DNA of 31,401 bases, taken from Amoebophrya sp. A120. Its lineage: Eukaryota > Protista > Dinoflagellata. The notes under the pieces were generated by a model, which saw only the letters and a list, made by a program, of their open reading frames with translations, did not search any database and was not told the DNA's origin. Made by a program: the position numbers and the translations under genes. The stretch is taken from NCBI GenBank assembly GCA_905178155.1, contig CAJINV010000037.1, positions 75,754 through 107,154 of the forward strand. Direction: 5' to 3'. Positions 2,327 through 30,603 of the stretch are shown here, piece by piece; position 1 is the stretch's first letter; every line of letters begins with the position of its first letter.

Positions 2327-5300
2327 TATGCAATGCAGATGTGTCTGGGTCTAGAAACCTGCTATGCTGAATGGTCATGATTGAGTGCTCCTTTCACCGC
2401 AGTGTAGCATGACAAATTTTCACATGCTTTCTGATGCTTAGTACGCTGCATTACAACCTACGATTTTTCAAGACGAAATTGTGGCCTTTTTGTTGCTTTT
2501 ATGCAATACAGATTTTTCAGGAGTGCTGGACACACAATACAGGTTCAACTCCTTTCCAGACCCAAACACATTTGCGATGCATATCCACACATTCCGGCCG
2601 TTTCGTCGTGCCGTTGAGAACTTCACTGTATTTCGTCTGATCACAGCTGCAAGTGTGGTTGCGAAACGCGTCTGTGCACTTGTTATCCATCTTGTTGAAT
2701 TGCGAACACGGGTTGCCGTCTGCACCGGGGACCAAGCAATCATCCACATCCTGGCAATACTGGTGCTGGGTCTGGTCGAAAATGCTGGTTTGGTAACCCT
2801 CGTCGCACTCGCACTGGTAGATGAGCGTGGTCCTGTTTTTATTTTTTGCATGAGTAGTTTTGGATTTTTTGTTTTCAATTTTCATCAGGCGCACGCATAG
2901 ACGCTAATTTTGGGCAAATCAAGATGCGACCACAAGGCTCAAAATTCTGTTAAACACGGCGGCACGCCAGGTTTTCAACGTCTTTAATTTGCCCCAAGTT
3001 ATCGTCTGTGCGTGCGCTTGTATCAGCCGCCGTTTTTCAATCGCAAAAGTCGAGTATACCGTCGTGATTCAGAAAAAAGATCATTTTTTCTGAGTACCAT
3101 ACCACCGTGATTCCGAAAAGTAGCAGTGAAACGATGAAACTTAAACATCAGAATAACCCGTACCGCCGTGATTCGCGACGATTAAACTGATTCCCGCCGT
3201 GATTCAAAGTAGCGATAAAATTGAAAACAAAATCAACGCAACACGGAAAACCAATTGATTCAAAGTACTTATGTACCGATTCCAACTGCAGTTATTCACG
3301 ACCTCCGCCCCGTACCGGTCGACTCCTAATCCGCTTCTGAAATCTTGACACGGGTCCGGCGGAAAGCCCGCCACCATCGTCGCGTTCCGGATTTCCTCAA
3401 CTGTTTTCCCCTTGAACGGATTGCCGCACTCGCAACTAACGTCGTTCACCAAATCGGTGCAGACATTTTCAAACCCGTACGGCCCACAGGGTTCGTCAAA
3501 CTCGTCGCACTCGTTGATTTCCATACAAGTGGTCGGATGGGGTTCCGGGAAACAAGCGGTTTTTTGACTCCTGACTCTTGTCGTGTTCTGAAACGGGTTC
3601 TGCTGCAAGTCGTAGAGAGGAGACTGATACACCACTTCTGTAAAGAAGAACGCGAGGTCTTGGTACGTCAAAGTGGTGTAATACGTGAAGTTGTATTGCT
3701 GCACTGCGGTTGCTGAATCTGAAGAACTGGGCATGGTATAATTCGAGTCGTTTGTGCCGTTCGCGTCAGAAGTCGTTGTCATATCGTTGCTGCTATTACT
3801 CCCGCCTGCTGACATCGCGAGTAATCGCAGGAAATGCTGCAGCGACATTCCGTTGGCCGCTGCAGAAGAAGCGGCGGCGCTGCTGAAGAAGGCTTCGTGC
3901 TTGGTCGTTGTGCCAAGAACTGTTGACCCACCGGATATTTTTTGCTGTTGGATGGACACATCAAAAGCCATCTCTTCTTCCTCGAATTCATCTGACAAAG
4001 CGACCATCATCGCGTCGTCAATCATCGCAGAGTCGCTTCTTCTACCATTCTGGTTTACTACCGCCCCGTTGCTGTTGCCTGTCATCCTTCGCACCCTATT
4101 GACAAAATCCTTCAGCCTGCGGATCGTGTGTTGCCCCGCTTGCACTGACCCGTTGACATAGACGTTTGTCGTGCTGTTTGTCGTGACAGCAGTCCCATTC
4201 GTGTCATTGGTGTCGTTGAAAACGTCTGGCGGACAGACTGGCGTGTCGTTCCGATACCCCGGCGCGCAGATGCAGTAGTAGCTGCCATACGTGTTGTGAC
4301 AAGAATGGTCTTCGGTGGTGTCGTAGGAAAATTTGTTGAAGTCAAACATTCTCCGCTCCAGCCCTTCTCTGATATCTCCACAGGGGCGGAGTTCCAGACA
4401 TTCGTCGATGTCCACACAAGATTCTTCGACCAAAGCGGGCGTTGTCACCACCGTTTCGTTGATACTAGGATCAAACATCGTCGCTTCTGGTCTCACTTCC
4501 GTAAACGTTTTCCGAAATCCCGGGGCGCACCCACAGGTGTAGTTATTCACTCCGTCGAAACAGCGGTTGGGCGGGACGAGTCCGCACGGCATGTCCGCGC
4601 AATCATCGATGTTGTAGCAGGTTTGGTTTAGCCGGTTTTCGAATAAAATTTCGTTGTCGAACGGGTTGAAACTGTAGTTCGTCGAAGTGAGATTAAACCC
4701 GATCCCGCATTCGCATTCGTGTCCGTCTAGTCGGTTGTGGCACTTGTTGTAGCGACTGTGGCCGCAGACGGGCTGCTTCGTGGGGTTTAGGGGGTTTTGT
4801 CCATCCGCGTTTTCGGGGGCGCAGTCGTTGATTTCCTCGCAAATTTCTAAACCAAATTCGTCGATCGCAAGCTGGAAACCAAGTCCGCAGGGGGATCGGG
4901 GGGAAAAATGAAACTATTGCCCTAGCCAGCGCCTCGGAAAAATCTTTTGGAAAATGAGTAGCAACAGGGTCGACGGGTGAAAGAATGAGTCAATGAATGC
5001 GGGGCGACAAAGGCCACCTATCGCTTCCGATTGATCCGGGGTGGGACCGGGGTGGGACCGGGGTGGGACTCGGGTGGGACCGGGGTGGTTGCAGGCGCAA
5101 AACCACTTACACGCCCTCCACAACAGAAACCTGTGGCCGCGACCTGTTTCTGGTCTCCCCGGATTGGACAAGATTTGTCGTACGACAAAACAGGTTCTGT
5201 CGTACGACAAACCCGAATTGTGTCGCACGACAAACCAAACCTGTCACCAGACAGGCAGAAACAGCGCGGGGGAAGAAATCTGTCATGCCAATTTTCTAGA

Positions 5301-8300
5301 AATGACATCACAGATCGCCTGTTGTTGCTCAGGACAAATGAATCTTGCAGACGCAAAGCAAGCCCTCAACAACCAAAAGCGGCGGGGGTGGGGCGGGGGT
5401 GNNNNNNNNNNNNNNNNNNNNNNNNNNNNNNNNNNNNNNNNNNNNNNNNNNNNNNNNNNNNNNNNNNNNNNNNNNNNNNNNNNNNNNNNNNNNNNNNNNN
5501 NNNNNNNNNNNNNNNNNNNNNNNNNNNNNNNNNNNNNNNNNNNNNNNNNNNNNNNNNNNNNNNNNNNNNNNNNNNNNNNNNNNNNNNNNNNNNNNNNNNG
5601 GGGTGGGGCAGGGGTGGGGCAGGGGTGGGGCAGGGGTGGGGCAGGGGTGGGGCAGGGGTGGGGCAGGGGTGGGGCAGGGGTGGGGCAGGGGTGGGGCAGG
5701 GGTGGGGCAGGGGTGGGGCAGGGGTGGGGCAGGGGTGGGGCAGGGGTGGGGCAGGGGTGGGGCAGGGGTGGGGCAGGGGTGGGGCAGGGGTGGGGCAGGG
5801 GTGGGGCAGGGGTGGGGCAGGGGTGGGGCAGGGGTGGGGCAGGGGAGGCTTTATCAATTTTCCGAAGTATGCAACAATTACAATATGGCAATAATTTCGC
5901 GCCGCCATTTCATAACTTGCAGGTGTAGGTCAACTCCCAATTGTCATCCGTGCACTCATTTGTCGTGTTAAACGTCTGAAACAGTCCCCTACCGTCATAA
6001 CCCCCGATCTGCCGCCGGTCGAAATCTTCGTACGTGATTGTCAACTTGCACGGATCATCCGCGCACGTCCGTGGCGGCCGGTACTCCTTGCAACTGGGTT
6101 GCTCCGGTACCGGACTCGAGTTTGGATCAGTTTGTTGCGCACCACCACCTCTCGACAAAGCATCTCGATCAACCATCCCGAATGTTCTGTCTTCATTCCG
6201 TTCATTCACCATACCACATTCCTGCTTCAAACACCCGCGCAACTCCGTAAACAACGTACAGCAGACGTCTTCGTACCTGGGTAGGTACTTCGTAGAGGAA
6301 TAGTTCCCGTCCGACATTAATCGGTGTTTTTCCGAATATTTCAAATCCCTGATGTCCAGCCCGTTCGAGATCGACGCGTCGAAATGCTTCGTGAGTGTGT
6401 ATTCCACTAGATGCTGCAGCACCGTTTGGTTGATGTCATCATCAAATGCGTGCTGAAAAAGGAGTTGCTGGATATCGTTTGTATTCCCTCCCGCCGCAAC
6501 AGCAGCATTTGTGTAGTTCGACATGTTCGAGCTGTTGGAACTACTGTTAGAATCGTTCAACATCATCCCAGAACTACCCGTATCGTCGCCATCATCAGCG
6601 GAAGTTGCTGTTCCGTTCGGATACACGATGCCAAAAGGATTGTTGAACGGGGTTTTCTATCCTGTGTAAAAACGTCCCCACCCCAGAGTTGTCATGCAAA
6701 TGCGCAATGGCAGGAGCATCTGTAATGCGCATCTCCATGGGAGGCATTTCCAATCGTGTTTTGACATTTGTAATGCTGTAAACAGGATGAAAAAGTGGCT
6801 TTCTCATGCGGCTTTCCTTGCTAGCCAGCACTACACTGCAGATGTAAACTTGTCATGCAGAACTCCCAGAACTTGGGAATTTGTGGTGCAGAGTTCCCAT
6901 CTTGACTATGGTGTGGGGACGTTTTCACATAGGATATTTTCACCATGCAGGTGGACCTTTGACAGCGGGAAAACAGCAAATCCGTGATCTCGTAGTAACT
7001 CGGCCGGATGCTTGAAAATTCCATATCAAATGTAAAAATGTCTGGGTCTGGAAGGATGCAAGGTTTGTCATGCACATTTTGCATGAGTCCTGATGTCTGT
7101 GATGCATGCCCTAGCGTCACAGATTATGTGAGGGCTTTCTCATGCCTATACCGCATGAGAAATGCCCTCTCGAAATGGCAAAAACTGGACCTCTTTTGCT
7201 GCTCATGCAATACAAATTTTTTACAATCCAAAAACAGCATCACAAGTTGCATTCTTCCAGACCCAGACATTTTTACAAGCCGTATTCCACGTTTTGAAAC
7301 AACATGCTCTGCTGGTCCAAAAAACCCGTGAAACGATTCACCGTGAAATTCGCAAAATTCTCCTCGTACACACTGCAGTTCTCCTGCTGTGTTTCGTTGG
7401 CTGGAGGTAACTGTTCTCTTACGATGAAACTTGGCGGAATTTTGTCGAAAAAGCTGTGCTTGAAACATTTTTCTTCGCACCGGTCTTGAAATTTCTGCTT
7501 CTGGGTAAGCTGCTTGTAGGCTGGCTTCTTTGCGGCGGCGAGTGCAGCGGATGTATTTGTCATGGCAACTGCAACTGCAGAAGATATCATCCCGCCCAAT
7601 CTGTTGCTTCCCGTCGCATCTCCGTACAGTTCGGTAATCAATTCCTTATCCGATTTGATCACCACTTCCGATTGGAAGACAAAGGGGATCCCGAGGACTG
7701 GCCCTTCCGTTCTGTTCACCGCTGTTCCTCCCGTTTCGTTCCCGGAAGTCTCGTTTCCTGTCATGTTCGACGAATTTGTCATGTTGGAATGATTTCCACC
7801 TGCACTCGCGTGCTTGTGCGCGGCTAGTAACCTCAGTCTCACGTTCTGTCCAAACATTTCCTCATCCTCGAAAAATTCGGTGAGCTCGTTTTTCGGCGCA
7901 GAATCGTATTCATTTTCGAAAACATCTTCTTGCTCCAGGTCGACATCTTGGTCGACTGTGTCTGACCCCGCCAGGAGACGAGCACTAGTGGCCGCACCTG
8001 ATCGCACGGGGCTTGCCTCCCTCGTAATTATCTCCCCATCACTCCCAACCGCAACCGCCTGCGCCCTCGAGGACGGGACGGCGTTTTGGAGGAACAGCAA
8101 ATCCCCACTCACCATCCCAGTCGCAGCAGTAGCAGAGGTGATCCAGGTTTTGAACTCGGTCGATCCGAAGAACCCGTTACTGCTGCTGGTCCCACCACCA
8201 CCAGCCTCAAACCGCGGAAAAATCCTGTCCAAAACCACACTCCGCATATTCTCCGCCGCTTTGAAATTCCAGAAGTGGCCGATCTCAAACCCGAACGTGA

Positions 8301-11300
8301 TTTGACACGAATCGGAATGTTGACTCGTCGTCACGTTCGTAATTTGGAAAAAATCGGTCCCGTTTTTCTGGCTGTTGGTCGAGTCTGCTTGGGATAAGAT
8401 GGGGTAAAAATTAGTTGAATACGAGCTGTTTTTCATGTACTCGGATTTGTACACGAAATCCTTCACGGCGTTCGAAAACGCTTCCTTGAACTTCAAAACC
8501 CGCTGTTGTCGCAAACTCGCGTGGGCGAGGAAGGGGGTAGAGCTTAACGCCGATGAAGAACTACGTGTGCTGGCGTTCGTCCCGCCAGTTGTGCTAGAAA
8601 CTACTGCGTTGAGATCCGTGAAGAAGAGATCCGGGCACATCAAGGTTCTTCTTGGCGATGTAGATGATGTTGAAGTCGAACTCCCAGTCGACCCCGCCGC
8701 ACTGCTCGTCCCGTTCTGACTCCCACTACTAGTATTGCTGCTGTTGCTACTTGTTTCAGCGCTGGTTGTAGTATTGCTGCTGTTGCTTGTACTACCACTT
8801 CCACTGCTACCGCCTGCGCTGTGTCCCGCCAGTTCTCGCAAGGAATGCGGACCGCCACCATGACCGCCGCCGCTGCTACTATTGCTACTCGAGGAAGAGG
8901 AATTGCTAGAACTAGAGTTGTTGCCGGTCGTCGTAGCATCACCACTGCCACTGCTGCTGTTCCCGGAGGTAGAAGAGGAGTGGTTAGTACCTCCACTGGC
9001 AGCTGCCGCTCCGGTCGTGCCGTCCTGATCCGCAACAACTTCCTCATACCCCAAACTGTAAACCAACGTCGTCCTCCCCTGCAACACAAAGTGCGTCACG
9101 TCGTTCACTGGTGGTTCTGCGACCATCGGGAAGAACTCCTGTTCGTTTTGCCCGGCTGATGCTACGGCTAAATCTTTCCAATAAACCAAATCCGGACAAT
9201 AAGCCAAAATCTGCTGTTTCTCCTGCTCATACTCCAAGCCAAAGGGACTGTCGCAGTTTCGGTCGAGGCATTCCAAATAGTGGTAGAAGTAATCCGAACA
9301 GCAGGTATCCTGGATATTTCATCAAAGTCAAAAATCCCCCCTCCCCATATCAAAACCGAAATCTGTGATGCGGGATTTGTGTACACGGGATTTGTGTACA
9401 CAAATCCAATCTGTCTCGCAGTAGAGGACTGCAGGCAGATGCAGCGCCTGAGTAGGGGCGTTCTGCTGTAGACACCTAGCAAGGCAGGCATATCCTCTAC
9501 TGTAGGCGATACGGCATTACAAAGTTTTGCGAAGCGCGGCCGATTCTCTGGCTTTGCCTTCTTGCAAAACAGGGGCGATTTGTGGTCACAGATCAGCATC
9601 ACAAATTTTCAGTAGTGCCCCTTTTCGGTATGGGGAGGGGGGATTTTTCCTCTCAATATATTTGTTGAGCTGTTCGAAGACACAATAGCCGTTCCGTTCG
9701 CAGCCGCATCACACACTTCCGGCATAGCGTTCGCCCCGCTCAGTCGGTAAAACGTCGACGTTACTGGCCAGCTGAGCTTTTCGTGGTAGTCTGCGCCTGT
9801 CGAGGTCAGCGACCCGCTCGCCCGGCAGAACTGCTCTTTACACTGGCTGTAGGACATGCCCGGCGCGGTCTCGTTTTCCGGGGTCGAACTTGGTAAGACC
9901 GGGGGGAAAGTCTCGTAAGTCCGAGCAACGTCGAGGTAGAAGAAACTGCTAGAAGTTGTACTCATATCAGCACTAGTATTGGTCGTGGACGTTGTATTGC
10001 TGCTATTGGAAGATGTCAACGCCCCTCCGAGCTGCAAGTGCTGCATAAACGGCGCTGTGTCTAGGAAGAAAGTTCCACCATAATTAGTAGTTTCGTTACT
10101 TGATGTTCCCGTTGTCACCGCAGGCACGGAGAAATAGCCAGAATCTGCCCCCTTCCGGAACTTCTCATCTAAACTCCCGTCAAACGACATCCCGATCTGG
10201 GACGAAAGTTCGAAATACACTAGCAGTTGTTGCACGTTCGAATTCATTTTATCCTCAAGCCTCCTGACCTCCAAAAAGTTGAAGCTTTTCGAAATCAAGT
10301 CTTTCGTCGTGTTACTACTACTTCCATTTTCCTCGATAAAGGCTGCGCCAAGCGCTTCCGAAAGTTTTTCCGAGACGTGCCTTTCGAAAAACCGCTTCGC
10401 AACCCCACTGTGCTCCTGCTCGCCCGCCAGGTTTCCACCGGAAAAGGCGGCTAGAACGTCCACTGTCACGGCCATCGGCGCTGTTCTGTTTTCCGCAGTC
10501 GCAAGCGCGACGGCCGCTGCTTCGTGGTCTTGTAGGAAACTTGTGGCGTCAACAGAGTAGTAGCCTTTGATGGATTTCACATTCAAGCTCGTTGGCTGGA
10601 TCTGCAATAGAGGATTCGCTGACGCAGCGATCGTCGCATTGCTCGCATTCCCATCTGATGCACCACCTGCTGGCGATACTGCTGTTGCCGTTGCATTCCC
10701 ATTCGTGACGAAAAACGAGGAAAAATCCGCACACTGTCCGTTCTGCAGCGAACTCGTTGCGTTTTCGTAATTCGCCGCAATCGCATTGAATTCTTGCATC
10801 AGGCTCCCAGACGTCGCTAGCGTTTCGTCGCTCTCGTCGTACCAGCCTCCGTGAGAAATTCTAGGGTACAGTGCTTCATCGGCCAGGTTCGCGACACAGG
10901 ACTGCGAATTGTTTGCCGCCAAACTCTGCATACAGAAATAAACGTCGCGGAACGGGAGGTACGTTGCAACTGGAGCTGCTGCTTTCGCACCTGGTGAAGC
11001 AGCAGTAGAAACCACCGGTGTATGGGAAAGTGCTACTCGACCGTATAGGTGGTCGCTCGTGAACGCTGGTCCCGACGAGGATGAAACCGTTGCTGTGCTC
11101 GTTGTGTTATTTTCACCAGCAGCAGCTCCTGCCGTCGTAGAAACAGGCGGCGCTCCACCCAGACAGCACTTCCCATTTTGCGCAAACTGCAACATACTGC
11201 TGTACATAGACGACGTTGCTGCGGAAGAAGTAGATGCTGTTGCGTTTCCATCACCACCCGCTGGTGACACCACCGCGGCTGTGTTGAAAATATCGCTCCT

Positions 11301-20300: not shown

Positions 20301-23300
20301 AAAACTCCTAGGTTTGTGTTGCAACATCCCCTTCCTGACTCTGGTGTGGGTACGTTTTTACTCAGGATATCAGACTCGAAATATTCTGTGGTCTCGTTGG
20401 TCGAATTTGTCGTGTTGACGGGCACCACATCTTCTTCTTCCGAAGCTGCTTGTGGCGGCGGTATCCTCGCGAAGCTGAAGTAATCCCTGGTGTAATTCGT
20501 GAAGGTTTTTCTCGTCGTCACCACCTCCAGCCGGACAAATTTCTCGAATTTAACCTGGTTGTTTAGTAGAACGGAGAAATCGGTTTTGGCAAAGTCGTAC
20601 ATGCGCTGATAAAAGGAAGACGTTGTATTTATCTTGCTGTTTTCCCTGTACGACTTCAAAAAATCGTCCAGATAACTCCCAGCGAACGCGTTGAACGCAT
20701 TCCCCATCGCTTTCGCGAAGAAGTGGGCGAGCAAATCTTCGTTCTGAAGAAGCATGTCTGCGGTTTGCTCCGAGTTGGCTTCGAGTAGGAGTTTCCCCTC
20801 CAGAATCGCATTGCAGGAAGTGGATTTTTGTGCTGTGGTCTGGGTAGAAGTTTGCGTTGTGTTTGAAGAGGTAGCTGTTGTTCCTCGTGTAGTTCCGGCG
20901 TTGTAGGAATCTAAAGCGGTTGCTTCCGCGGAAATATCAACGACTGGCTGCTGTGGAGCGCCGGTGGTCGCAGTAACAGTAGCTGCTGACGCAGCCACTA
21001 CGTCCCGGAACAGCCAGAATGGGTTCCTTGACGATGTTGCTCCTCCTACCGCGACCGTGGCGCCTATTGTCGTGCTATTCGAAGTCGCACTCAAAGTGTT
21101 GTTCCCAGTTGCGTTTACGTCACTTTCGTCATCTGATACGGACCCAGCTGCAGTGCTGTTTGTCACATTAGAAAAATCTGTCTCATTGGAGGTTCCATTT
21201 ACCACAGAGGATGATGAATTCGTTACATTCATTCCCATGTCGGAGGAGGAAACCGCAGCATCGTCGTACTCGGTCGTTGTATTTGAACTGTTGCTATCGT
21301 TCGCCACTTGTGCTGCTGCACTACCTGCAACTACTACATCCAGCCTCGGATCCAGCGGCAGCCAAAGTTCGTTATCGTGACAATCTCTCACCGCCTGGAC
21401 GATTCTCGGGCACGTGAGAGGCTCGAAAAAGCCTGCAGATCTGCTTGGCAAAGTAAACGAAATCCGCAAACCTGTTGCACTATCTTCAAAAACTCTCGCT
21501 AATGGGTGGGGCGGTGGAGTCGTCGTTGTGGTTACCACTGCACCCTGTGATGTTGCTGGTGATGAATCCGATTCGCCACTGGCGCTTCCCGTGCTGTTGG
21601 AGTCATTCGCTGCTGACGACGTCGTATTCGAACCTAATATTCCAGAGCTGCTATCATCCTCGGTGGAGGACGTGGTGTTATAATTCCAAGACGTCGAGCC
21701 GTTGCTTGCATTGGTTTCGTTCGTCGTGGTACTATCCGATGCTGAGTAGTTGTAGTTCGACGTATTGCTTTCATTACCAACAGCAACTGCACTGTCGTCG
21801 TCATACGCGATCGCCTGTGAAGCATTGCTTGCAGAGGACCCTCCTGTCGCTGCCTGTGCATATATCTGTTCCCCGAGACCGGAAATTTCCGCCTTCAACC
21901 AGTCATAGAAGGCGAAAGAAAAACTGATTTCACTCGCACTCGTGTTCTGTTGAAAACAGTTCTGGTAAATGGAATTCGCGTTGGTGCCAGAAAGAACGTC
22001 TTTCACACTCTTATCAATTGCAAAAATGTCTGGGTCTGGAAGGATGCAATTTGTATTGCTAATTGTGGATTGAATTGAATTGAAGTAGCGACGCCCCCTG
22101 ACGTGCCTCGGTAGCCGATTGCTCTACCAACCGGAGGTGCTAAGTACATGCTTACTTCTTCCTTCGTCGAGCACCTTATTCGCCATACAAACCGTTCGGT
22201 GAGCAATTACCCGGACTGCCGGCCCAATTTGTGCCGGTTTTGGTGTTTTAGGGAGATACCCGCAACGCCCCCACGGAGTTGGCGAAACCCTGATAGCCAG
22301 CGAGACGCAACCCTTGGCGGACCTGAACGACCTGAGACCATCCCCACCTTTGGATGTGTTGTCTCCCGCTTGTGCTGCACGTTCTGCTTCGAGCCGCCCA
22401 GACCCTGTGCCCCGCGGGATCTCGGTTCGCACAATGTTGGTTAGTACGCATCGTATCCTGATCGCGGCCGGCGAGTTTGTAGTTGGGGGGGCTACTTCTT
22501 TTCTTGAGGGGTCGAGGTAGTGGCATTGCTAATTGTGGATCGTGCAAAAATCTGTGTTGCATGAATGCCAAAAGTTGTCCACTTTTGACCAAGTTGAGAG
22601 GAAGTTTCTTATGCAGATTAGGCATGATAGGGATCTCACCGAGTCTGTCATGCTAGGTCCTGCATTCCAGACGACATGGATCATCGAAAATCTGCATGAC
22701 AAGTCTCGGAATCTTCCAGACCCAGACATTCTTGCATTTGATAACTCTCCTGTTCTAGCAAATCCCAAATCAAATCCTCGTTGGTGGTAAAAGCCCGTTT
22801 CAATTGCGAGACGACAAGAGTCCCTTCCGGGTTTGGTACCACTGTGGTTTGCGCTTGTGTTGAAGATGCTGTGTCGATTATGAGGCTCGATCTTCTCACA
22901 TTGCTCTCCGTTACATAAGGCAACGGAGTGGTGGTGGTGGTGACTGCTACAGATTGGCCTGTAGTTGTTCCTGTGGCGTTGTTCCCATTTGGCGCAGCAC
23001 TCTGATTTGAGGAATTCGTGTCGTTTGTGCTGCTGCTGTTTCGATGATCCGCGTCAGAAGTGTTCCCGTCAGCACCAGCTGCGGTCGTATTCTGCATGTA
23101 GTACTCATCTTCCGTCAGCAGCAACGCTAGTAACTGCTGACTCGTCAGGGATTCTAAGCCGTAGCTCGTCTTCACCTGCTCCACCGTCTCAAATTTTGTC
23201 GAGCTAGAGGACGAAGCAGATGAGGAACTGGTAGCTGCAGCCATACTAGCAGTGGTGGTTGTTCCACTATTTCCTCCGCTGCCGTGGTAGCTACCGTAAA

Positions 23301-23511
23301 AGGACGGGCTTAATCGTTTCAAATACTTCGCTATTTCCATAGCTATCCTCCCCTGCTCGCACCGCTCCACGAAAAGAGATTCGCCGGTGACCATTGTAGT
23401 AGCAGCCTGGGATTGTTGCGCCAAAGCAGACTTGTAAAAGTGCTCGCGTCCTCCGGCTGCGAGGAGTGCTGCGAAGCCGGTGGCTATTACTTGTTTCCCT
23501 AAAAACTTCAT
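1715..23511 (-). CDS. Giant multi-exon secreted/surface glycoprotein (about 4,500 aa): S/T/N-rich mucin-like regions, Cys-rich blocks, C-terminal Ca-binding EGF repeats. 3' end probably outside the window.
   Basis: Long minus-strand ORFs join in frame when the mapped inserts are removed. Putative start at 23511 (MKFLGKQVIATGFAALLAAGG, signal-peptide-like). Very many N-x-S/T sequons. cbEGF starts DIDEC, EINEC, EINDC, NIDDC and DVDDC. Confidence 0.85.
2327..2583. mobile_element. Introner family A, copy A1 (257 bp), non-canonical intron
   Basis: TIRs TATGCAATGCAGATGTGTCTGGGTCTAGAAA / TTTCCAGACCCAAACACATTTGCGATGCATA. Flanks TTCAC/TCCAC (4 of 5 match). Removing 262 nt restores the frame. Confidence 0.85.
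2589..2832 (-). CDS. Giant gene exon, EGF repeats
   Basis: TTLIYQCECDEGYQ...YCQDVDDCLVPGADGNPCSQFNKMDNKCTDAFRNHTCSCD. Confidence 0.85.
2833..3276 (-). other. Canonical GT-AG intron (444 nt) with internal inverted repeats
   Basis: Minus strand AAT CG|GTACAT...AAACAG|G ACC gives in-frame NCSWNRTTLIYQCEC, which completes an EGF repeat. Confidence 0.8.
3277..4890 (-). CDS. Giant gene exon with several Ca-binding EGF domains
   Basis: Open frame CGLGFQ...CEEINDC...CYNIDDCADMPCG...CVDIDEC...SCHNTYGSYYCICAPGY...CMEINECD. Confidence 0.9.
5033..5088 (+). repeat. (GGGACCGGGGT)n 11-mer, about 5 copies
   Basis: Seen directly in the sequence. Confidence 0.8.
5600..5845 (+). repeat. (GGGGCAGGGGT)n perfect 11-bp minisatellite, about 22 copies, running into the gap; G-quadruplex-prone
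   Basis: Seen directly. G4 tracts are separated by 1-2 nt loops. Confidence 0.95.
5917..6657 (-). CDS. Giant gene exon
   Basis: KTPFNNPFGIVYPNGTATS...DVCCTLF...TCADDPCK...NECTDDNWELTYTC. Confidence 0.85.
6658..6936. mobile_element. Introner family B, copy B1 (279 bp)
   Basis: TIR TATCCTGTGTAAAAACGTCCCCAC / GTGGGGACGTTTTCACATAGGATA. Perfect TSD TTTTC. Removing 284 nt gives STCMVK|TPFNNPF. Confidence 0.92.
6942..7023 (-). CDS. Giant gene, 82-nt exon
   Basis: EFSSIRPSYYEITDLLFSRCQRSTCMV, in frame on both sides. Confidence 0.8.
7024..7284. mobile_element. Introner A2 (261 bp)
   Basis: TIR TATCAAATGTAAAAATGTCTGGGTCTGGAAGGATGCAA and its complement. TSD TTCCA. Removing 266 nt gives FQNVE|FSSIR. 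Confidence 0.92.
7290..9319 (-). CDS. Giant gene exon (S/G/T/N-rich)
   Basis: 667-aa ORF extended upstream by IQDTCCSDYFYHY. Confidence 0.9.
9320..9658. mobile_element. Introner family C, copy C1 (339 bp)
   Basis: TIR core AAAAATCCCCCCTCCCCATA / TATGGGGAGGGGGGATTTTT. TSD TATTT. Removing 344 nt gives SSTNI|QDTCC. Confidence 0.92.
9664..12156 (-). CDS. Giant gene exon
   Basis: 824-aa ORF extended upstream by AGAGGDSASQSPAPGTGG. Confidence 0.9.
12157..12477. mobile_element. Introner C2 (321 bp)
   Basis: Same TIR family as C1. TSD CCGCA. Removing 326 nt gives DTTA|GAGGDS. Confidence 0.92.
12483..14369 (-). CDS. Giant gene exon
   Basis: 662-aa ORF extended upstream by DQNIETFTTQYTTKR. Confidence 0.9.
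14370..14647. mobile_element. Introner B2 (278 bp)
   Basis: CATCCTGAGTAAAAACGTCCCC / GGGGACGTTTTTCCTCACGATA. TSD GGTCG/GGTCC, and the mismatch is synonymous. Removing 283 nt restores the frame. Confidence 0.9.
14653..14710 (-). CDS. Giant gene, 58-nt exon
   Basis: NTLDIDTNNETITNALNTSL, in frame on both sides. Confidence 0.78.
14711..14972. mobile_element. Introner A3 (262 bp), opposite orientation to A2
   Basis: TIR family A. TSD GGTGT. Its right arm is the reverse complement of the A2 left arm. Confidence 0.92.
14978..15160 (-). CDS. Giant gene exon (183 nt)
   Basis: KRRQNANVTSVDGAATISHPLL...ENTMHN. Confidence 0.8.
15161..15414. mobile_element. Introner A4 (254 bp)
   Basis: TIR family A. 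TSD TTTCA. Removing 259 nt gives QALK|RRQN. Confidence 0.92.
15420..15812 (-). CDS. Giant gene exon
   Basis: GSGTTTNSAGATSTSQAQQQLQTALKIDSSEANSLRIHKATYG...WEDLAQAL. Confidence 0.82.
15926..16030 (+). repeat. AGTCACAACACTAAGCTGT x3 upstream of the nested ORF
   Basis: Copies at 15926, 15961 (1 mismatch) and 16012, plus partial TAAGCTGT copies. Confidence 0.8.
16055..16945 (+). CDS. Intronless nested antisense ORF (296 aa, first ATG 16103); divergent SET-domain-like protein, possibly 5'-truncated
   Basis: Non-repetitive ORF. YYLD...YGNVVNMCNH...CQPDN and FVVRRPIEVLEPIEIPY match the spacing of the SET motifs GNxxRFINHSCxPN and AxRDIxxGEELxxDY. Match is by eye only. Confidence 0.5.
   Translation: MYCITWKGTQLLSGLQMMQARKYPGRFFLLFRIPEEQDEPLRVVDNMQTVKPNSEKGYDAAKVRKLVTPNVREEADKAQELYDDMMKPHLAIDFEQFFTLWDKTNKAARFLEYIQGRGNTQLENSLISSGGGSGDTGNALLRGFPQFEKGMYYLDQWTQEAFQLYGNVVNMCNHLMHKVTGGALVPLPGQGGNGGWCKKKEMTPEQGCQPDNLAEEIFGPIPEAKSAADIFEETKNGKDVTVRVKPLFVVRRPIEVLEPIEIPYVIARKNPTYTGDRCGVAISRGKADKYFHLPEK
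17005..17055 (-). CDS. Possible micro-exon (repeat unit) of the giant gene
   Basis: In-frame TGSGTTTNSAGATSGS. It could be skipped without a frameshift. Confidence 0.4.
17059..17906. mobile_element. TIR element family E (848 bp), non-autonomous
   Basis: About 45-bp imperfect TIR (CGTTAGCATGAGAAGTGGTGAATTTGTAGTGAATTT versus the complement near 17856-17891). No clean 5-bp TSD. CTGTTG is repeated 858 nt apart, which preserves the frame. Confidence 0.72.
17914..17967 (-). CDS. Possible micro-exon (repeat unit) of the giant gene
   Basis: In-frame ATSTGSGTTTNSAGATTT after removing element D. Confidence 0.5.
17968..19003. mobile_element. TIR element family D (1036 bp), introner-like
   Basis: TATCAAAGGAGCAAGTGAATCAC / GTGATTCATTTACCCCTGTGATA. 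TSD GGCAC. Removing 1041 nt keeps the frame. Internal TGGAGGTGTAATCACTT repeats at about 18323 and 18641, inverted at about 18539. Confidence 0.85.
19009..19712 (-). CDS. Giant gene exon with (NETNVTEY)n sequon repeats and a basic stretch
   Basis: NETNVTEYYNETNVTEYNETSNVTEY...KRQVRQIRRRKKIVVKK...IIRELSTGSG. Confidence 0.88.
19713..20035. mobile_element. Introner C3 (323 bp), inverted relative to C1 and C2
   Basis: TIR family C. TSD CGTTG. Removing 328 nt gives NETEFN|ETNVTEY. Confidence 0.92.
20041..20090 (-). CDS. Giant gene, 50-nt exon
   Basis: SENVTNFTNVTVNETEF continues the sequon repeat. Confidence 0.82.
20091..20369. mobile_element. Introner B3 (279 bp)
   Basis: TATCCTAAGTAAGAACGCACCCACGCCAGAGT / ACTCTGGTGTGGGTACGTTTTTACTCAGGATA. 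TSD TCAGA. Removing 284 nt gives YFES|ENVT. Confidence 0.92.
20375..22011 (-). CDS. Giant gene exon
   Basis: 569-aa S/T/N-rich ORF. Confidence 0.9.
22012..22743. mobile_element. Introner A5 (732 bp = 262-bp A element plus 470-bp nested insertion)
   Basis: TIR family A. TSD ACTCT. Removing 737 nt gives LEQES|VKDVL. Confidence 0.92.
22071..22524 (-). mobile_element. Probable 5'-truncated non-LTR retroelement or SINE nested in A5
   Basis: Perfect 16-bp TSD ATTGCTAATTGTGGAT (22055-22070 and 22525-22540). (TTCAA)-type short tandem tail at the minus-strand 3' end. No TIR. Confidence 0.75.
22749..23511 (-). CDS. Giant gene, probable first exon (signal-peptide-like start)
   Basis: MKFLGKQVIATGFAALLAAGG... 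In-frame ATGs also exist upstream, so the start is uncertain. Confidence 0.75.
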
Positions 23512-24133
23512 TTTTCTCCTTCTCCTCGGTTTGTGAAACATTTTCCAGGTCGCGTCCGCCCCTCGGGCTCCAGGATCTTCTGGTCGTGTGCAGCTGCCTT
23601 CTTGTGGTTGCCGCATCTTCGTGCAAGATGTGCTGGCGTGTCCCCTACTTGATGTCTTCTTCATTCCGTCTTATATCTCGTCGAGTGTCCGTGGTTCTCC
23701 CTCCATCTCTTTACCCACCGACACCGCTTGCGTTCCTTACTTTGAAAAAAAATTCTGGCACAACCAAAAACAAGTATTCATTCCGGAAAAGAAAAGAAGG
23801 GCAAGTCGTAGTTCGTCTCTTGCCGTAAGAACTACTTCTAGAACGCAGTAGTAGACGTAGTAGCAGCGCTACTTTAGAAGTACTTACGATTCATTTTTCA
23901 AGACCGCCTTGGTAACAAACTTTGTGTACAGGAGTTTGATGATCATATGGTTATGGATTGCACTTCAGCACTGGTTCATTCATTTAAGAAGATGTCTTGG
24001 TGAAACTGTTTTTTTTCTGACCACAGTTCGTCGGATTGCGGTCTACTTCTTGAAAAAAAAGCAACGACAAGAGGAAGCGCAAGCACGTCCGAGGGACAAG
24101 GACGGCTCAAACGAGACGGAATGGAGTTGGCTG

Positions 24134-24282
24134 TATCCTGTGCAAAAGTACCGCACTCGTAGTAATTGCAGTCATGCATTACAAATTTTTTTCTTAAGGT
24201 AAATCCGCATTACAAATTTTATTTCTCATGCTGGGGAAATTTGTAATGCATTTATACGAGTACGATACTTTCGCAGTTCATA
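24134..24282. mobile_element. Short TIR element family F (149 bp)
   Basis: TATCCTGTGCAAAAGTACCGCACTCGTA / TACGAGTACGATACTTTCGCAGTTCATA. Flanks GGCTG/GTCTG. Inner IR ATGCATTACAAATTT. Confidence 0.75.
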
Positions 24283-25041
24283 GTCTGGAGACGAAGACAT
24301 TGATTATTTTCTGTTCGAAATAAACTTTCTAAGAGAAGTAGAAGACGACGAGAGAACTAGAAGAGGACTTTCTATATTTCGCAGCGTAATCATCCTTGCA
24401 GCAGGAGCTCCAAAGCGGAATGAGAATGAAAAAAACTTCCACTAGAAAAATGACCTGCTAGCTGTACCGAGATCTGAGAAACGGAAGAACTTTGCTGAAA
24501 CAAGCCAGAACGTCGTAAAGAGGAACTTTCTTTTGGACACACAACAAAGAAAAGCTACGAACAAGTTGTACAAGGCAGACACTATTACAGGTGTCGAGAT
24601 CTTCTCTGTGGACACAAACGAAGAATTCAGACGAATGATCTTTACCTGTGACGAGGATGTTTTAGTTTACAAGACTGAATGTAGAAACCTACACCGCAAG
24701 AAAGATAAAACCTCAACAACACCTGCGAACCAAAAAACCAAGCCGAACAGCGAGTCCTAGCATCTACAGTGTGATGTCTGCCGCAACGTCGCAATTCTGG
24801 CATAATTTCAACTGCATTTTCACGCGTCTAGAAATCAGTAGCTTTTCAACAAGAAACACGCGTCTTGGAGGTGAAGACCGTTTTTTTTGTCTGAAAATCT
24901 CAGGCGCATCAAGTTGACGCGCGAGGCATAGCGATAACGTCCGAGATTATGTACAACAACTATCCATCATTTCACCGTGATGAGTGCCACCCGCCGTTCC
25001 AAATTTGGTATGCCCTCGTCTAACAGCTTCCGGAGGTCCTG

Positions 25042-25271
25042 CATCGTACGAAAAACGTGTTTCACTGGAACGATTTAATTTTGCGAGTTTTGCATTACAG
25101 ACTTGCTCCAGTACATTAGCAGTAGCACTACAAAGGAACAAATTTGTCATCAGAAAGCAAAACCAACAAATCGATTGTTTTGCAAGTGTAGCAAGCCAAA
25201 CACTTCTGCGACTGCGAATCATGCATTCTCTGCATTACAAGTTTACAGTGAAACATCATTTCCTTCCGATA
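25042..25271. mobile_element. TIR element family G (230 bp)
   Basis: CATCGTACGAAAAACGTGTTTCACTG / CAGTGAAACATCATTTCCTTCCGATA. Perfect TSD TCCTG. Confidence 0.78.
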
Positions 25272-25334
25272 TCCTGCTTTCCCTCCACCAGCAGCTTCCA
25301 TGCAGAGGAGCCCGTGTCATAAACCGCTTGGAGA

Positions 25335-25646
25335 AATCATGTGCAAACACGTACCCAACCGAGAGTTGTCATGCAGATCTTGCATGTTGTGGTTCTGCAG
25401 GTGGTCTCTAAGTGTAATGCGCCTTCCCATGAGACCTCGCATCTGGTACTCCTTTGTTGCAAAAATTTGTCATGCTCAAATCAGGATGATTAACATGATT
25501 CGTGATGAGGGAGCACTAGCCAAGCATCGCACTCTACTACAGATCTGAGTTTCCCATGCGGAACTGTAGTGGAAACCGATTGACTTCTGCACAGGAATCA
25601 CACTGTGATTACGGTCGTGTGGGTAAGTACGCTTTTGCACAGGATA
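25335..25646. mobile_element. Diverged B-like element B4 (312 bp)
   Basis: Left end resembles B1 (AATCATGTGCAAACACGTACCCAACCGAGAGTTGTCATGCA). Right end ...TTTTGCACAGGATA. Flanks GGAGA/GGGGA. Confidence 0.7.
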
Positions 25647-25809
25647 GGGGAAGCTTGCTGCCAGTGCCTGGTCATAAGAGTCGTGTGGTTCTTCAGGCCA
25701 GAAAAACAGAGCCATAGAAAACATGCACGTCGGGAGGCTGCATAAGAGCGCAGTATTCCAAGAAAAGCTCGCAGCTCTTGGCCATTTAGCCAAGGGAATG
25801 ATGTATGAA

Positions 25810-25842
<33 letters not shown>
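25810..25842. repeat. (GAT)11 microsatellite
   Basis: Seen directly in the sequence. Confidence 0.9.
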
Positions 25843-25844
<2 letters not shown>

Positions 25845-26457
25845 CGACCTACTACACTAATTCAGGTTTTATCTGATGAAAACAACCACGAAGCAAAATC
25901 ACAATAACGCTAATACCATCCTCCTCCGCTTTAATCTGTTCCTTCAAGTGCATGTATGAGAGTACACAACCCCTTCTCCTCCGCCGTTGAAGGGCATTAA
26001 CTGGCGTGATAAACCTATCTGCCGCAGCTGCATGACAAATCCGCATGACACGGCTTCTCCCTTCAGTTTGCTGGGGTTTCCTCGAAACTTGTCATGCGAA
26101 AAGCAAAAGTGCTTGTTCAAGGAAAAAGAAAATTACAAGATTTTGAATTGATTTTGCATGACAAGAAACGTGGTGGAAGTAGAGTTGTGCAAGGTCATAG
26201 CATCGAAAAGGCCCGGGCTTTTTCCTCTGCCGTTTCCAACTCTGCTTTCGTTTCCTTCAGCATGTCTTGCAAATTATGCACCTCCTTGCCCTATGCACTG
26301 CAAAAGCGTGATCGCATCCGCACTCGCAAAATGGCATGACAAATTTTGGTTCCAAAAACAAACATAGTAGAGTTGCTCATCATGCAGATAATTCACGTCA
26401 AAAGAACTGAGTCTTGTTCATGCGATTATATAATATTTTGCGACAGTCAATACGCGA

Positions 26458-26823
26458 CTACGATACTTTTTCCCGGCATATCCCCAATTTCCTCCCGTTG
26501 CTCCGCGCGATCCTGCCAAAACCCCGGGATTTTTTCTTCTGGTTACTGAGACCGCTGGTCAGCAATTCTTTTGTCAGCGACTCGATCTTCTGCAGTTGCG
26601 CGTAGAGGGAGGAGGTGCCGACTTTGAGCTGTCTCGCGTGCTCCTGGTCTTCGGATAGCACGTCGAAGTTGGTCCGGATAAGCTTGGTGCCGTGATGGTG
26701 AAGAGGGTGGTGATGTAGCGGGGGGGATGTACTGCTTGTAGCTGAACCTGTAGTGCAGTTTCCGCATGAGAAGTAGCTGTTCTTCCGTTGGAAAATCTCG
26801 TCGAAGAGAGCGTGGTACCTCAT
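26458..26823 (-). CDS. Possible first exon of an unidentified gene
   Basis: ATG-initiated 121-aa ORF with protein-like composition (His-rich patch, helical QLQKIESLTKELL). No family recognised. Confidence 0.35.
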   Translation of the reverse strand: MRYHALFDEIFQRKNSYFSCGNCTTGSATSSTSPPLHHHPLHHHGTKLIRTNFDVLSEDQEHARQLKVGTSSLYAQLQKIESLTKELLTSGLSNQKKKSRGFGRIARSNGRKLGICREKVS

Positions 26824-28080
26824 CTTTGATGTTTCTTCAAGTAGTCACTTATTTTCTACCGGCTGCTCTTGCGCTTTTGGTTATTACACGTGGGGATCGA
26901 AAAAACAAATTGAAGTTTGTTGTGTGACGAAAAGCGCAACCGCCACAACAGATACAAAGTGTGCAACTTCGTTCCTTTTGATACTTCTGGCGCTAATCTA
27001 CTTCATCATGATCTCGCTATTCCATAAGGAAAACGAGTCCAGTTCACGATAACGAGCCACGCAAACGTTTTGTGCAACGATTGGTTGCTTAGGTTACCGA
27101 TAACGATAAAAACGAGCAAGTCAATCACTAATAAAGCATCTGCTCTCCACAATCACGACAAACGAAAAGCAGCTGGTCATGTAACGATCATTATGATATG
27201 GCGATAATCATCTCTACGACAATGAAAGCGATAGCACGACAGATGTTGTAAATTGTTCGTGAGGGTGGTCGTAGTTACATTTCTCACGGGAAGGAACTAT
27301 CTTTGCCGGTTCTTGCAACGTGTCCGTGTCGGTAGCTGCTGCATTACCTTTTTCGCTTTTAATATGTTCAGTCTGTTTGTCCTCTTCACAATATCTATGG
27401 TGGATGGTGCTGGTACGGAGATCATGTGACGTGTGGAGCTTGTTCTTCGAGCTGCTTGAAATTCAGCACGATTACATGCAGTACCAATACATTTTCATCA
27501 TCTGACATTAGCAATAAAAAGTATCTATTGTCACCTACTTACTTTCCCAACACAAGAAAAAAGCTTCGTCCCGCTCATCTTGGATAATGTTGACACAGAA
27601 TTCTCGTCTAGTACTTCCAACGCCAACGGCAATGCAGCGCATTATATGCCGCGCAACTAGAAAAGATGGTCGAGGCAAAATTTGATTGTGCGGCTGGCTC
27701 GGAGTGCCAGGTTGCACAATGTTCGATAAACGAAAATGTGTTGCGAACGTATGATGAATAATTCTTAAAGTGTAGTTTCTTACCTACGAACCTCCCTGGT
27801 TGTAGACTTGTTGAAGACTGACTTGCCCTACGTTCCTTCTGGCTGATTACTTGATATTTGCACAAAATTCTATTTGCAGAATTGCTATTGAGGATGACGT
27901 GACTTCTACACGGAGAAAAGACTCGGTTTTCCTACCTACAACTTCATTGAAGCAAAGGCAATAAAGGGATTGCTCTTGTAGCTGATGTCATGTTTGAGGA
28001 ACAGCAGGTACAAAATTTCGCAAAGGCCGTCGGTCGTGCATGATAGCACGACGGCTCCACGAGGCTACGCGTGGAGTACA

Positions 28081-29091
28081 CTATTTCTGCCGTCCGCGGA
28101 ACCCGAGCATGGTTTTGTTGTCACTCCGCTTGATCGCATGCACGACGTGCTTCAGCGAGATCGTCGACTTTCCCGCGTGCTCGGCGAAGGCGACCATGTA
28201 CTTGGTAATATCCTGCAACCACAGCTGGAACAGATCGCGGATCTCTGGGATGACCTTCCGAGACAGACGGTTGATGCCGCCCCGCCGCGCCAACCGCCGG
28301 ATCGCCACCGGTTTCAAATCCGACATCTGGTCGACCAACTGCTGCTTCGGATACTGGGCCAAAAACTCGGTGCGGGTCAGGTACCGTTGTTCTGGTATCA
28401 ACTGCAAAAATGTCTGGGTCTGGAAACTTGTGATGCTGGGTGGCGTCTCATGATGAGGCTCCAAATGCTGGCTCAGCATGACAAGTTTCTGAGCTCCTCG
28501 GTGTTGCCTATTTCGCATGACAAACTGCGCTTCTGCATCACAGAAAAACGGAGCCCTTGGGTAACGTGCATGACAGATTTAACAGTCATGCCAGGCAAGC
28601 ATGACAAACACGAATTCTTCCAGACCCAGACACTTTTACATTTGATATCTGGCATCATGGTACAACTACTGCTTCCACCCGGGAATTGTTCTGGTAGATG
28701 AACCGGAGTCATGCTCGCCAGTTTCTCCTATCAAATGCAAAAATGTCTGGGTCTGGAACATTCTGAGACTTGTCATGCATGTTTTGCATGACCCAGGATG
28801 TCTGTAATGCACGACCTAGCGTCACAGATTTTTCCTGATGCCTACTCCGCATGACAAACGCCCTCCCCGCGTAGCACAAACTAGACTCCTCTTGCTGGTC
28901 ATGCAATACAGCTTTTTTTAGAGACCAAAATTAGCATCACAAGTTCAAATTCTTCCAGACCCAGACGTTTCTGCATTTGATATCTCCATATCGCTCACAA
29001 TCGCCTGGGAATCGGACTGCAGCTGTTGCTGTAACTGAAATTTTCCGTTGGTTTTGTTAACCAAAGAACCGGCCTTCTTGGAGCGGGCCAT
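28081..29091 (-). CDS. H4: Divergent histone H4-like protein, 164 aa, 3 exons (29091-28988, 28728-28653, 28395-28081)
   Basis: KPVAIRRLARRGGINRLS...EIRDLFQLWLQDITKYMVAFAEHAGKSTISLKHVVHAIKR...TMLGF aligns to canonical H4 KPAIRRLARRGGVKRIS...[20 protein letters not shown]...TLYGF. Both introners excise in frame back to ATG 29091, which has an in-frame stop upstream. Confidence 0.88.
28396..28647. mobile_element. Introner A6 (252 bp) in the H4-like gene
   Basis: TIR family A. TSD TCTGG. Removing 257 nt gives TMMPE|QRYL. Confidence 0.92.
28729..28982. mobile_element. Introner A7 (254 bp) in the H4-like gene
   Basis: TIR family A. TSD TCTCC. Removing 259 nt gives SDME|KLAS. Confidence 0.92.
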
Positions 29092-30341
29092 CTTGGTTGA
29101 ACGCGATCTTGTTCCGGGTGGACAACGAAATGATTCTTGTACGTAGTTCTTTTCAGAAAGTACGAAGGGACAGGTGGCGAAAATTTTTCCGGGAAGATTG
29201 ATCCTCTAGTAAGCATTTAAGCCATTTCATTTTCAAGAAGTAGAGTCACAGTTGCAATTGAGTTGCAATTTTCATGCCAACCCTCTCTCGCTTTTCCAGT
29301 CTCTCTGTTTGAAGTGTAGTAACGGCCCGAGCATAAACTACCCTGCCTACCGAAATACAGCCTGAAACTCTTCAGAAGTTTTGACGTTGGCTCCCTCTGC
29401 AGCTTCTGCTTTGCTCCTTTGCCGTTCTCGTCGGGACGAATGTTGTACGAAGCACCCTAGCATAGCAGTAGAACAAGAGAAAAGACTTTGTGAGAACAAC
29501 ACGCCGCAGGGTGGAAAAGTCGAACCACAGGGAGAAAACTGTAGCAGGCTAGTGTTGTACGGAAGTGGCAAATTTTTCGGCGAGACGAAGGTAATCTCTA
29601 ATTTGGTGTACACTTCCACAGTGGAATTGTTCTGTTCGTGTTGTCGTTTAATTTTCTATCTGCCCCTCCTCGGAAACAGGATGGATTCGATATTTATACA
29701 GGTCGTTATTTTCAAATTGTCTTACTGCTAGAGGACTCTCATAATTTTGTACAGATTGGATCTTTTCGCCATATGAAAAGTCACGTGCTAATCTCAAACT
29801 TTGCGAAGCGATATTCGGCAAACAAGAACCTTTCGCTTCTCGTCAGTAGTAGCTACATGAAGATGATGATTCTGCTACTAGGACCAACTCGTGGAGATGT
29901 TGCGACGTTTTACATACATACGTTACGGCTGATAAAATCGGCACAGGTTCGAAACACTGTTGAAATTCTGGTGGTTGTGAATAATCGAAAACAAACTTCT
30001 TGCAAGAAACAAAAATCGTAAATTCTGGTTTGGTACATTCGATTCTGGTTGTTCAAAACTCAACTTCTTGGATACTTGTAGTCGTACTGTAGTAAGTTGT
30101 AGCGAAGTCGTTGTCAATTTTCAAATTTAATTTTGTACGCATGATGCCATCAAGCGCTCTATAATTTCTTGTTAATTTCAAATTATCATTCGAATCTGAT
30201 TTCTTGCTAGGTTCGTAACAGCAGCTGTCTGCACTCCTAAATCAAAACTTCATGAAGTTGCCAGGCAACTCATGAACTTGTCATGGTCAGATCGGCATGA
30301 CAACCTCTTGACCGAACCTCCACCTTACACCCCAGATCGCG

Positions 30342-30603
30342 TATGGATTGTAAAAGTGTCTGGGTCTGGAAGATTGCAACTTGTCATGCTGTTTTCGGAG
30401 CCTAAAAAACTTGTATTGCATGACCAGCAAGAGGGGTACAGTTTTTGCTACACGGACAGGGCATTTCTCATGCGGAAGGTACATCAGGAAGATTTCTAAA
30501 AATCTGTAATGCTAGGGCATACATCACAGACTATCATGGGTCATGAGAAATATGCATGACAAATCTTGCATTCTTCCAGACCCAGACATTTTTGCGTTTG
30601 ATA
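30342..30603. mobile_element. Family A copy A8 (262 bp); host gene not identified
   Basis: TIR family A. Perfect TSD TCGCG. Confidence 0.9.

What the first reader, a model, noticed from the sequence alone, without database searches (positions are those of the whole stretch)
2327..30603. A multi-family system of TAT...ATA inverted-repeat elements removed as non-GT-AG introns by a one-TSD rule
Seen: 19 elements in at least 7 TIR families (A x8, B x4, C x3, D, E, F, G). Almost all begin TAT (a few CAT/AAT), end ATA and are flanked by a 5-bp duplication. At 14 of 14 testable junctions (12 in the giant gene, 2 in H4), deleting the element plus one TSD restores the frame and gives sensible protein. 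The deleted lengths fall in all three phases. No placement of the junction within any TSD gives GT...AG. Established (from memory): non-canonical introners with inverted and short direct repeats were reported in Amoebophrya genomes, with the splicing mechanism unresolved, so the phenomenon itself is probably not new. Inference: one excision machinery reads the paired ends and the duplication rather than U1/U2-type signals, so any transposon of this end type is a ready-made intron.
Basis: partly seen in the sequence, partly recalled or inferred. Interest (0 to 1): 0.92.

Follow-up and report, generated by a model that had tools for sequence, protein, structure and literature searches.

The report
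Known Amoebophrya transposon introns, cut mapped
Genes of the marine parasite Amoebophrya are interrupted by small transposon-like inserts that are missing from its transcript-like contigs together with exactly five flanking bases although they lack normal splice signals; the phenomenon is already published, and this window adds a likely position of the cut, one base before the insert and four after it.

Summary
Real, and already known. The window is Amoebophrya sp. A120 DNA. Its elements fit the published A120 introner elements (Farhat 2021: inverted repeats starting TAT-N7-AAA, 3-5-nt direct repeats). I find 20 elements with a 5-bp duplication (14 exact). Removing element+5 nt restores all 12 giant-gene junctions. 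Probable-RNA contigs from one sample skip exactly element+5 nt at 7 of 7 covered elements; the giant gene had no RNA cover. In a related strain, 62 of 65 callable junctions fit +5 and 103 of 123 copies have an exact 5-bp duplication. New here: duplications with one mismatch are still removed cleanly and bracket the cut. The upstream copy is kept through base 4 (RNA); one orthologue suggests base 5 comes from the downstream copy. The intron is therefore likely N-TAT...ATA-NNNN, keeping the +2U/+3A of this organism's GTAY donors. That favours a ruler from the paired ends, probably on a relaxed spliceosome, over reading the duplication, although an excess of synonymous mismatches is unexplained. 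The scan noted similar hairpin-bounded introns in other genomes.

The parts
2327..2583 (-). Family A element, 257 bp, duplication with one mismatch (sense base 4)
   Evidence: frame only
6658..6936 (-). Family B element, 279 bp, exact duplication
   Evidence: frame only
7024..7284 (-). Family A element, 261 bp, 5' end TAC, opposite orientation to 14711 and 22012
   Evidence: frame only
9320..9658 (-). Family C element, 339 bp, 3' end ATG
   Evidence: frame only
12157..12477 (-). Family C element, 321 bp
   Evidence: frame only
14370..14647 (-). Family B element, 278 bp, 3' end ATG, duplication mismatch at sense base 1
   Evidence: frame only
14711..14972 (-). Family A element, 262 bp
   Evidence: frame only
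15161..15414 (-). Family A element, 254 bp
   Evidence: frame only
17968..19003 (-). Singleton element, 1036 bp, inside a 42-nt coding repeat
   Evidence: frame only
19713..20035 (-). Family C element, 323 bp, opposite orientation to 9320 and 12157
   Evidence: frame only
20091..20369 (-). Family B element, 279 bp
   Evidence: frame only
22012..22743 (-). Family A element, 732 bp, with a ~470-bp internal insert; the same composite sits at another site in L066
24134..24282 (.). Singleton element, 149 bp, one mismatch; host gene and strand not established
25042..25271 (-). Singleton element, 230 bp, 3' end ATG; removed as 235 nt
25335..25646 (-). Family B element, 312 bp, 3' end ATT, mismatch at base 3; removed as 317 nt; upstream copy kept according to annotated protein P0002
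25668..25916 (-). Canonical GT-AG intron (GTAT donor), skipped in the same contigs
25955..26199 (-). Element found through RNA, 245 bp, mismatch at sense base 1; removed as 250 nt
26292..26480 (-). Element with weak TIR, 189 bp, mismatch at sense base 4; removed as 194 nt with only 1 nt of ambiguity (AT-GC or TA-CA ends)
28396..28647 (-). Family A element in the H4-like gene, 252 bp; removed as 257 nt
28729..28982 (-). Family A element in the H4-like gene, 254 bp; removed as 259 nt
30342..30603 (-). Family A element, 262 bp, opposite orientation to 28729; removed as 267 nt (strand inferred)
1718..23670 (-). Giant host gene, Ser/Thr-rich with EGF-like repeats near the C-terminus; 12 elements plus other introns; no RNA cover
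24950..26828 (-). Host gene, 203 aa, identical to annotated A120 protein P0002 after splicing (outer bounds approximate)
28084..29092 (-). Divergent histone H4-like gene with N-terminal extension (start approximate)
4894..5914 (-). Candidate non-canonical intron: TAT at the 5' end, no duplication (2 of 5 match), assembly gap inside; deleting it +5 nt gives an EGF-type C-x-C-x-x-G-F spacing
   Evidence: TIR not significant (9% of random 60-mers score as well); untested by RNA
17059..17906 (-). Inverted-repeat insert, TAT at the 5' end, no duplication; junction unresolved

Best explanation
These are Amoebophrya A120 introner elements, likely non-autonomous DNA transposons with a 5-bp target duplication, and they are missing from probable-RNA contigs as element plus 5 nt, likely because a relaxed spliceosome cuts at fixed distances from the paired ends, one base before the first UAU and four bases after the last AUA. 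Shown: the anatomy, the +5 removal at 7 junctions, and retention of the upstream copy through base 4 at one junction. Predicted: the ends pair into a long stem in either orientation. Inferred: base 5 comes from the downstream copy, so the intron reads N-UAU...AUA-NNNN and keeps +2U and +3A as in the GUAY donors here, while +1G and the final AG are dispensable. Inferred: because 1+4 equals the 5-bp stagger of the unknown transposase, each insertion restores the coding sequence whatever the target or phase; the duplication would be a by-product, not a signal.
For: Seven of 7 RNA-covered elements skip element+5, and the same contigs skip a GT-AG intron. Mismatched copies are cut cleanly: 26292 keeps the upstream copy through base 4, 25955 at base 1, and 25335 at base 3 according to P0002 (X9 shows one other letter in that piece). 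At L002 the A120 orthologue has the residue given by the downstream copy's base 5, and +5 splicing at 3 of 3 junctions aligns without indels. Canonical donors in the window are GTAT, GTAC, GTAC (one RNA-shown, two predicted); element 5' ends are TAT x19, TAC x1. First-base variants: 8 at 3' ends vs 1 at a 5' end, p=0.039, post hoc. Both orientations occur in one gene. Stems are predicted for all 19 elements folded (no shuffle control). All nine top A120 site pairs in Farhat Table S4 have T at +2, and register 4 reproduces them best (20 of 107 vs 0-11). Farhat found 83 of 89 spliceosomal proteins, including U1 proteins, plus U2, U4, U5 and U6 in A120.
Against: No lariat, branch point or spliceosome dependence was tested. 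U1 snRNA was not detected in A120. The upper bound of the register rests on one orthologue residue in a 91%-identical protein. Table S4 sites are probably biased by the aligner, so they are not independent. L123 has AAT at its 5' end inside an open frame, and counting TAC variants the polarity fades to 8 vs 3 (p=0.23). Mismatches between copies are synonymous in 11 of 14 (related strain) and 3 of 5 (window), above the 0.31-0.45 expected for a fixed cut with a neutral discarded copy (p<=0.011, post hoc). The RNA evidence is one sample, labelled RNA by guess, and P0002 may derive from the same data.
Confidence: 0.5

Rival explanations
1. Same ruler geometry, but a separate, non-spliceosomal hairpin-guided machinery cuts and ligates, as proposed for euglenid nonconventional introns.
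For: No 3' dinucleotide is needed; symmetric ends work in both orientations; U1 snRNA undetected; Euglena uses a paired motif with fixed spacers and yields circular introns.
Against: The 5' end matches canonical donors from +2 on, and variants lean to the 3' end. Farhat reports the same repeat organisation in 15% of canonical A120 introns, which suggests a continuum.
Confidence: 0.27
2. One reading: the machinery aligns the two 5-nt copies, so the cut can slide inside the duplication while always leaving one copy.
For: The excess of synonymous mismatches is what one expects if both copies sometimes reach the mRNA; duplications are well kept (103 of 123 exact).
Against: Three mismatched junctions are removed cleanly with the upstream copy kept each time. 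Candidate intron 4894-5914 needs a +5-type deletion with only 2 of 5 bases matching (weak, gap inside). Gene conversion from empty alleles could also give synonymous mismatches.
Confidence: 0.15
3. The joints are reverse-transcriptase template switches across hairpins flanked by short repeats, or removal happens in DNA.
For: A stem with direct repeats is the known signature of false introns (recalled). The run type is a guess, and the DNA controls were weak: X3 tables were cut and X4 barely covers the exons.
Against: One contig skips four elements and a GT-AG intron in a row, including a joint with only 1 nt of repeat. 19 of 20 retained elements carry stops in all three sense frames. Frames are conserved at 62 of 65 junctions.
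Confidence: 0.05

Closest known systems
Introner elements / non-canonical introns of Amoebophrya sp. A120 (Farhat et al. 2021, PMC7789003)
   Same: Same organism label. Inverted repeats start TAT, seven variable bases, then As; 3-5-nt direct repeats, with 5 bp in the Fig. S19 legend; many families; about 240 nt; non-GT-AG; hairpins; mechanism left open.
   Different: The text read treats splice sites as variable, 1-5 nt from the inverted repeat, with repeats of varying length. Here the duplication is uniformly 5 bp, removal is uniformly +5, and mismatched copies point to one register. The figures were not seen.
A120 TIR DNA introner families (Gozashti et al. 2025, PMC12130899, file sd07)
   Same: Families with lengths of 252-260, 278-279, 319-340, 148-149 and 730 bp and mostly non-canonical sites, matching families A, B, C and two singletons by length only. 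A TIR family with integrase-like ORFs is a candidate autonomous partner.
   Different: No sequence comparison was possible; their automated duplication calls range from 2 to 6 bp.
Euglenid nonconventional introns (Nomura et al. 2025, PMC12501133; review PMC11282704)
   Same: MITE-like, paired ends, duplication-like repeats, cut set by spacers from a paired motif.
   Different: Different motif (CDG/CHG) and spacers; circular products reported there, untested here.
Fritillaria borealis MITE-derived introns (review PMC11282704; PMC13326754)
   Same: Transposon-derived non-GT-AG introns handled by a changed U2-type spliceosome.
   Different: Preferred AG-AC/AG-AT ends and a conserved U1; here no end dinucleotide is fixed except T at +2.

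Membership tests
Amoebophrya A120 introner elements | Occurs in A120 | tested here: met
   Spliced 203-aa product is identical to an annotated A120 protein
Amoebophrya A120 introner elements | Inverted repeat starting TAT, 7 variable bases, then As | tested here: met
   TAT at 35 of 40 ends; AA at positions 11-12 at 32 of 40 ends
Amoebophrya A120 introner elements | 3-5-nt direct repeat at the boundaries | tested here: met
   5 bp: 14 exact and 6 with one mismatch of 20; 103 exact of 123 in the related strain
Amoebophrya A120 introner elements | Removed from RNA with non-GT-AG ends | tested here: met
   7 of 7 covered; 13 of 20 not covered
Amoebophrya A120 introner elements | Repeated families | tested here: met
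   A x8, B x4, C x3 in the window; 16 clusters among 223 elements in the related strain
MITE / non-autonomous TIR DNA transposon | TIR, fixed-length duplication, no coding capacity | tested here: met
   longest stop-free frame in 7 long copies 84-151 aa
MITE / non-autonomous TIR DNA transposon | Cognate transposase and empty alleles | not testable with these tools
   No genome held; no Pfam transposase hit in the 29 window frames scanned
Canonical U2 (GT-AG) intron | GT...AG ends | tested here: not met
   0 of 20; 6 of 107 by chance in the related strain
Spliceosomal intron (any) | Lariat and branch point; snRNP dependence | not testable with these tools
   needs bench work or lariat sequencing
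Euglenid-type nonconventional intron | CDG/CHG signature; circular product | tested here: not met
   Ends are TAT/ATA; product form untested

The most novel reading that the evidence does not exclude
The 'no splice signature' of Amoebophrya hides one strict code, N|UAU...stem...AUA-NNNN|, whose 1+4 ruler equals the transposase's 5-bp stagger, so tens of thousands of insertions from unrelated families are erased without a trace in any phase and orientation, by a spliceosome that has given up both +1G and the final AG or by a new hairpin-guided enzyme.
Probability: 0.4. Interest if true: 0.72.

Novelty: already known. Interest (0 to 1): 0.42.

Why it matters
The elements and their non-canonical removal are published. 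How they are removed is still open. A fixed register would turn the reported lack of a splice signature into one testable rule, would explain why insertions are harmless and spread so widely, and would fix gene annotation in these parasites. Mismatched duplications offer a way to map the true cut from existing RNA-seq, genome-wide.

Tried and rejected
No genome is held for the window or for five related loci, so no genome-wide count, empty-allele search or transposase search was possible. No RNA holder was listed for 19500-23700. Raw-read runs X5-X7 did not cover these genes: 133, 4 and 418 reads laid, nearly all on element copies from elsewhere. No annotated giant protein was found among proteins of 526-2000 aa (weak). 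A simple open-frame test on related loci discriminated poorly (121 of 167 for +5 vs 95 and 78 for controls); a window-trained codon model called only 14 of 223 (13 fit); both were replaced. The three viral-contig hits were not flanked by element ends. Target composition shows no AG or G enrichment, so co-option of canonical sites was rejected. In-frame cryptic GY-AG pairs lie within 12 nt of 12 of 21 junctions, but RNA did not use them at the 7 covered. Ribosome hopping was rejected because contigs lack the elements. The nested ORF P0001 gave no Pfam or Atlas hit. A representative-protein search for the H4-like protein was still queued at the end and was not collected.
Full report
Identity. 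An exon at 26482-26844 matches one protein at 100%, named 'unnamed protein product [Amoebophrya sp. A120]'. The spliced product of that gene equals it letter for letter. No whole genome is held.

Observation. A scan for inverted ends with a 5-bp duplication gave 18 elements. A stricter motif scan gave 13 candidates with TIR score >=25, against a mean of 0.04 in 100 shuffles. RNA joints added two, giving 20: families A x8, B x4, C x3 and five singletons. In the genes' sense, 5' ends are TAT x19 and TAC x1; 3' ends are ATA x16, ATG x3 and ATT x1. Fourteen duplications are exact and six have one mismatch. All three phases occur. Deleting element+5 nt gives stop-free runs of 1124, 2629 and 285 aa over the 12 giant-gene elements. 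Frame alone also allows +2. No placement gives GT-AG (0 of 20); GA-AG is possible at 2 and AT-AC at 1.

RNA. Three raw-read runs did not cover these genes. Contigs of X8 and X9 (one sample, RNA by guess) show joints at 7 elements and one GT-AG intron. The skips are 235, 317, 250, 194, 257, 259 and 267 nt, each exactly element+5. One contig skips four elements and the canonical intron together, which argues that it is mRNA. Thirteen of 20 elements, including the whole giant gene, are untested by RNA. The DNA controls were weak.

Second strain. One locus encodes a protein 91% identical to an A120 protein. Of 123 family A copies delimited without using the duplication, 103 have an exact 5-bp duplication and 115 have at most one mismatch; exact 4-bp or 6-bp duplications number 1 and 0; 238 of 246 ends are TAT. 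Of 223 distinct elements, 65 had both flanks callable by a codon model (128 short or unscored, 22 weak, 8 strand clash), and 62 need +5 mod 3 (p=3e-26). At L002, +5 splicing at three junctions aligns to the A120 orthologue without indels. Target bases are near background, and GT-AG is possible at 6 of 107.

Where the cut lies. An exact duplication hides the cut; a mismatch shows it. At 26292-26480 the RNA keeps the upstream copy through base 4, leaving AT-GC or TA-CA ends. At 25955-26199 it keeps base 1 of the upstream copy. At 25335-25646 P0002 carries the upstream base 3, which may not be independent of the RNA data. At L002 the orthologous residue matches the downstream base 5 (one case). 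Together these suggest an intron N-TAT...ATA-NNNN. Canonical donors here read GTAT, GTAC and GTAC, so +2 to +4 agree. All nine top A120 site pairs in Farhat's Table S4 have T at +2, and register 4 reproduces them best, but those sites are probably aligner-biased. First-base variants lie at 3' ends 8 times and at a 5' end once (p=0.039, post hoc; p=0.23 with TAC variants). Families A and C occur in both orientations within the giant gene, and stems are predicted for the 19 elements folded; the outermost three pairs are weak in 4.

Against this reading. Mismatches are synonymous in 11 of 14 cases in the second strain and 3 of 5 in the window, more than a fixed cut with a neutral discarded copy predicts. 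A minor sliding register or conversion from empty alleles could explain this. L123 has a non-TAT 5' end in an open frame. U1 snRNA was not found in A120. Nothing here tests lariats or spliceosome dependence.

Mechanism. Shown: anatomy and +5 removal. Predicted: the stem. Inferred: a fixed 1+4 ruler matching the transposase stagger. Least certain: the catalyst (relaxed spliceosome 0.5, separate hairpin-guided machinery 0.27, duplication-reading 0.15, artefact 0.05).

Literature. Farhat 2021 (PMC7789003): abstract, passages, sections 10, 11, 12, 16 and 32, supplement search and part 3 of 5; figures not seen. It already reports TAT-N7-AAA inverted repeats, 3-5-nt direct repeats, 29,850 repeated introns in 1954 families, and an open mechanism. 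Gozashti 2025 (PMC12130899): passages and parts 15-16 of 33 of one dataset; two files unsearched. Review PMC11282704: passages and section 6. Nomura 2025 (PMC12501133): abstract and discussion. PMC13326754: listing and two passages. Roy 2023 was seen only as a citation. Five searches showed no paper fixing the cut site; the library is partial, and Farhat's Figs 3, S19 and S23 may already show part of it.

Verdict. The added value is a uniform +5 rule, a likely register, and a cheap genome-wide test.

Noticed in passing
window 16055-16945 (+): A 296-codon open frame on the opposite strand inside a predicted GT-AG intron (15807-17004) of the giant gene; low DNA depth suggests single copy; no Pfam or Atlas hit.
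   Followed up: partly
window 22070-22545; L066 413-919: A ~470-bp insert inside a family A element, flanked by a ~16-bp repeat; the same composite (93% identical over 518 bp) lies at a different site in the related strain, so it appears to move as a unit.
   Followed up: partly
window 4894-5914: Intron candidate with an 11-bp G-rich satellite and an assembly gap, TAT at the 5' end, no duplication and no in-frame GY-AG nearby.
   Followed up: partly
window 17059-17906: Inverted-repeat insert without a duplication between copies of a 42-45-nt coding repeat; element+5 does not fit the frame under the simplest end definition.
   Followed up: partly
window 2883-3023: Small inverted-repeat element inside a predicted canonical intron (2833-3276) with an A-rich 3' end.
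   Followed up: no
window 28084-29092 (-): Strongly divergent histone H4-like protein with a long N-terminal extension, present in contig X8.
   Followed up: partly
window 25647-25667: A micro-exon of about 20 nt between a non-canonical element and a GT-AG intron, kept in RNA.
   Followed up: yes
window 1-733 and 31065-31401: Tandem arrays of 119-bp and 179-bp units at the window ends.
   Followed up: no
L001-L136: Excess of synonymous mismatches between the two duplication copies (11 of 14).
   Followed up: partly
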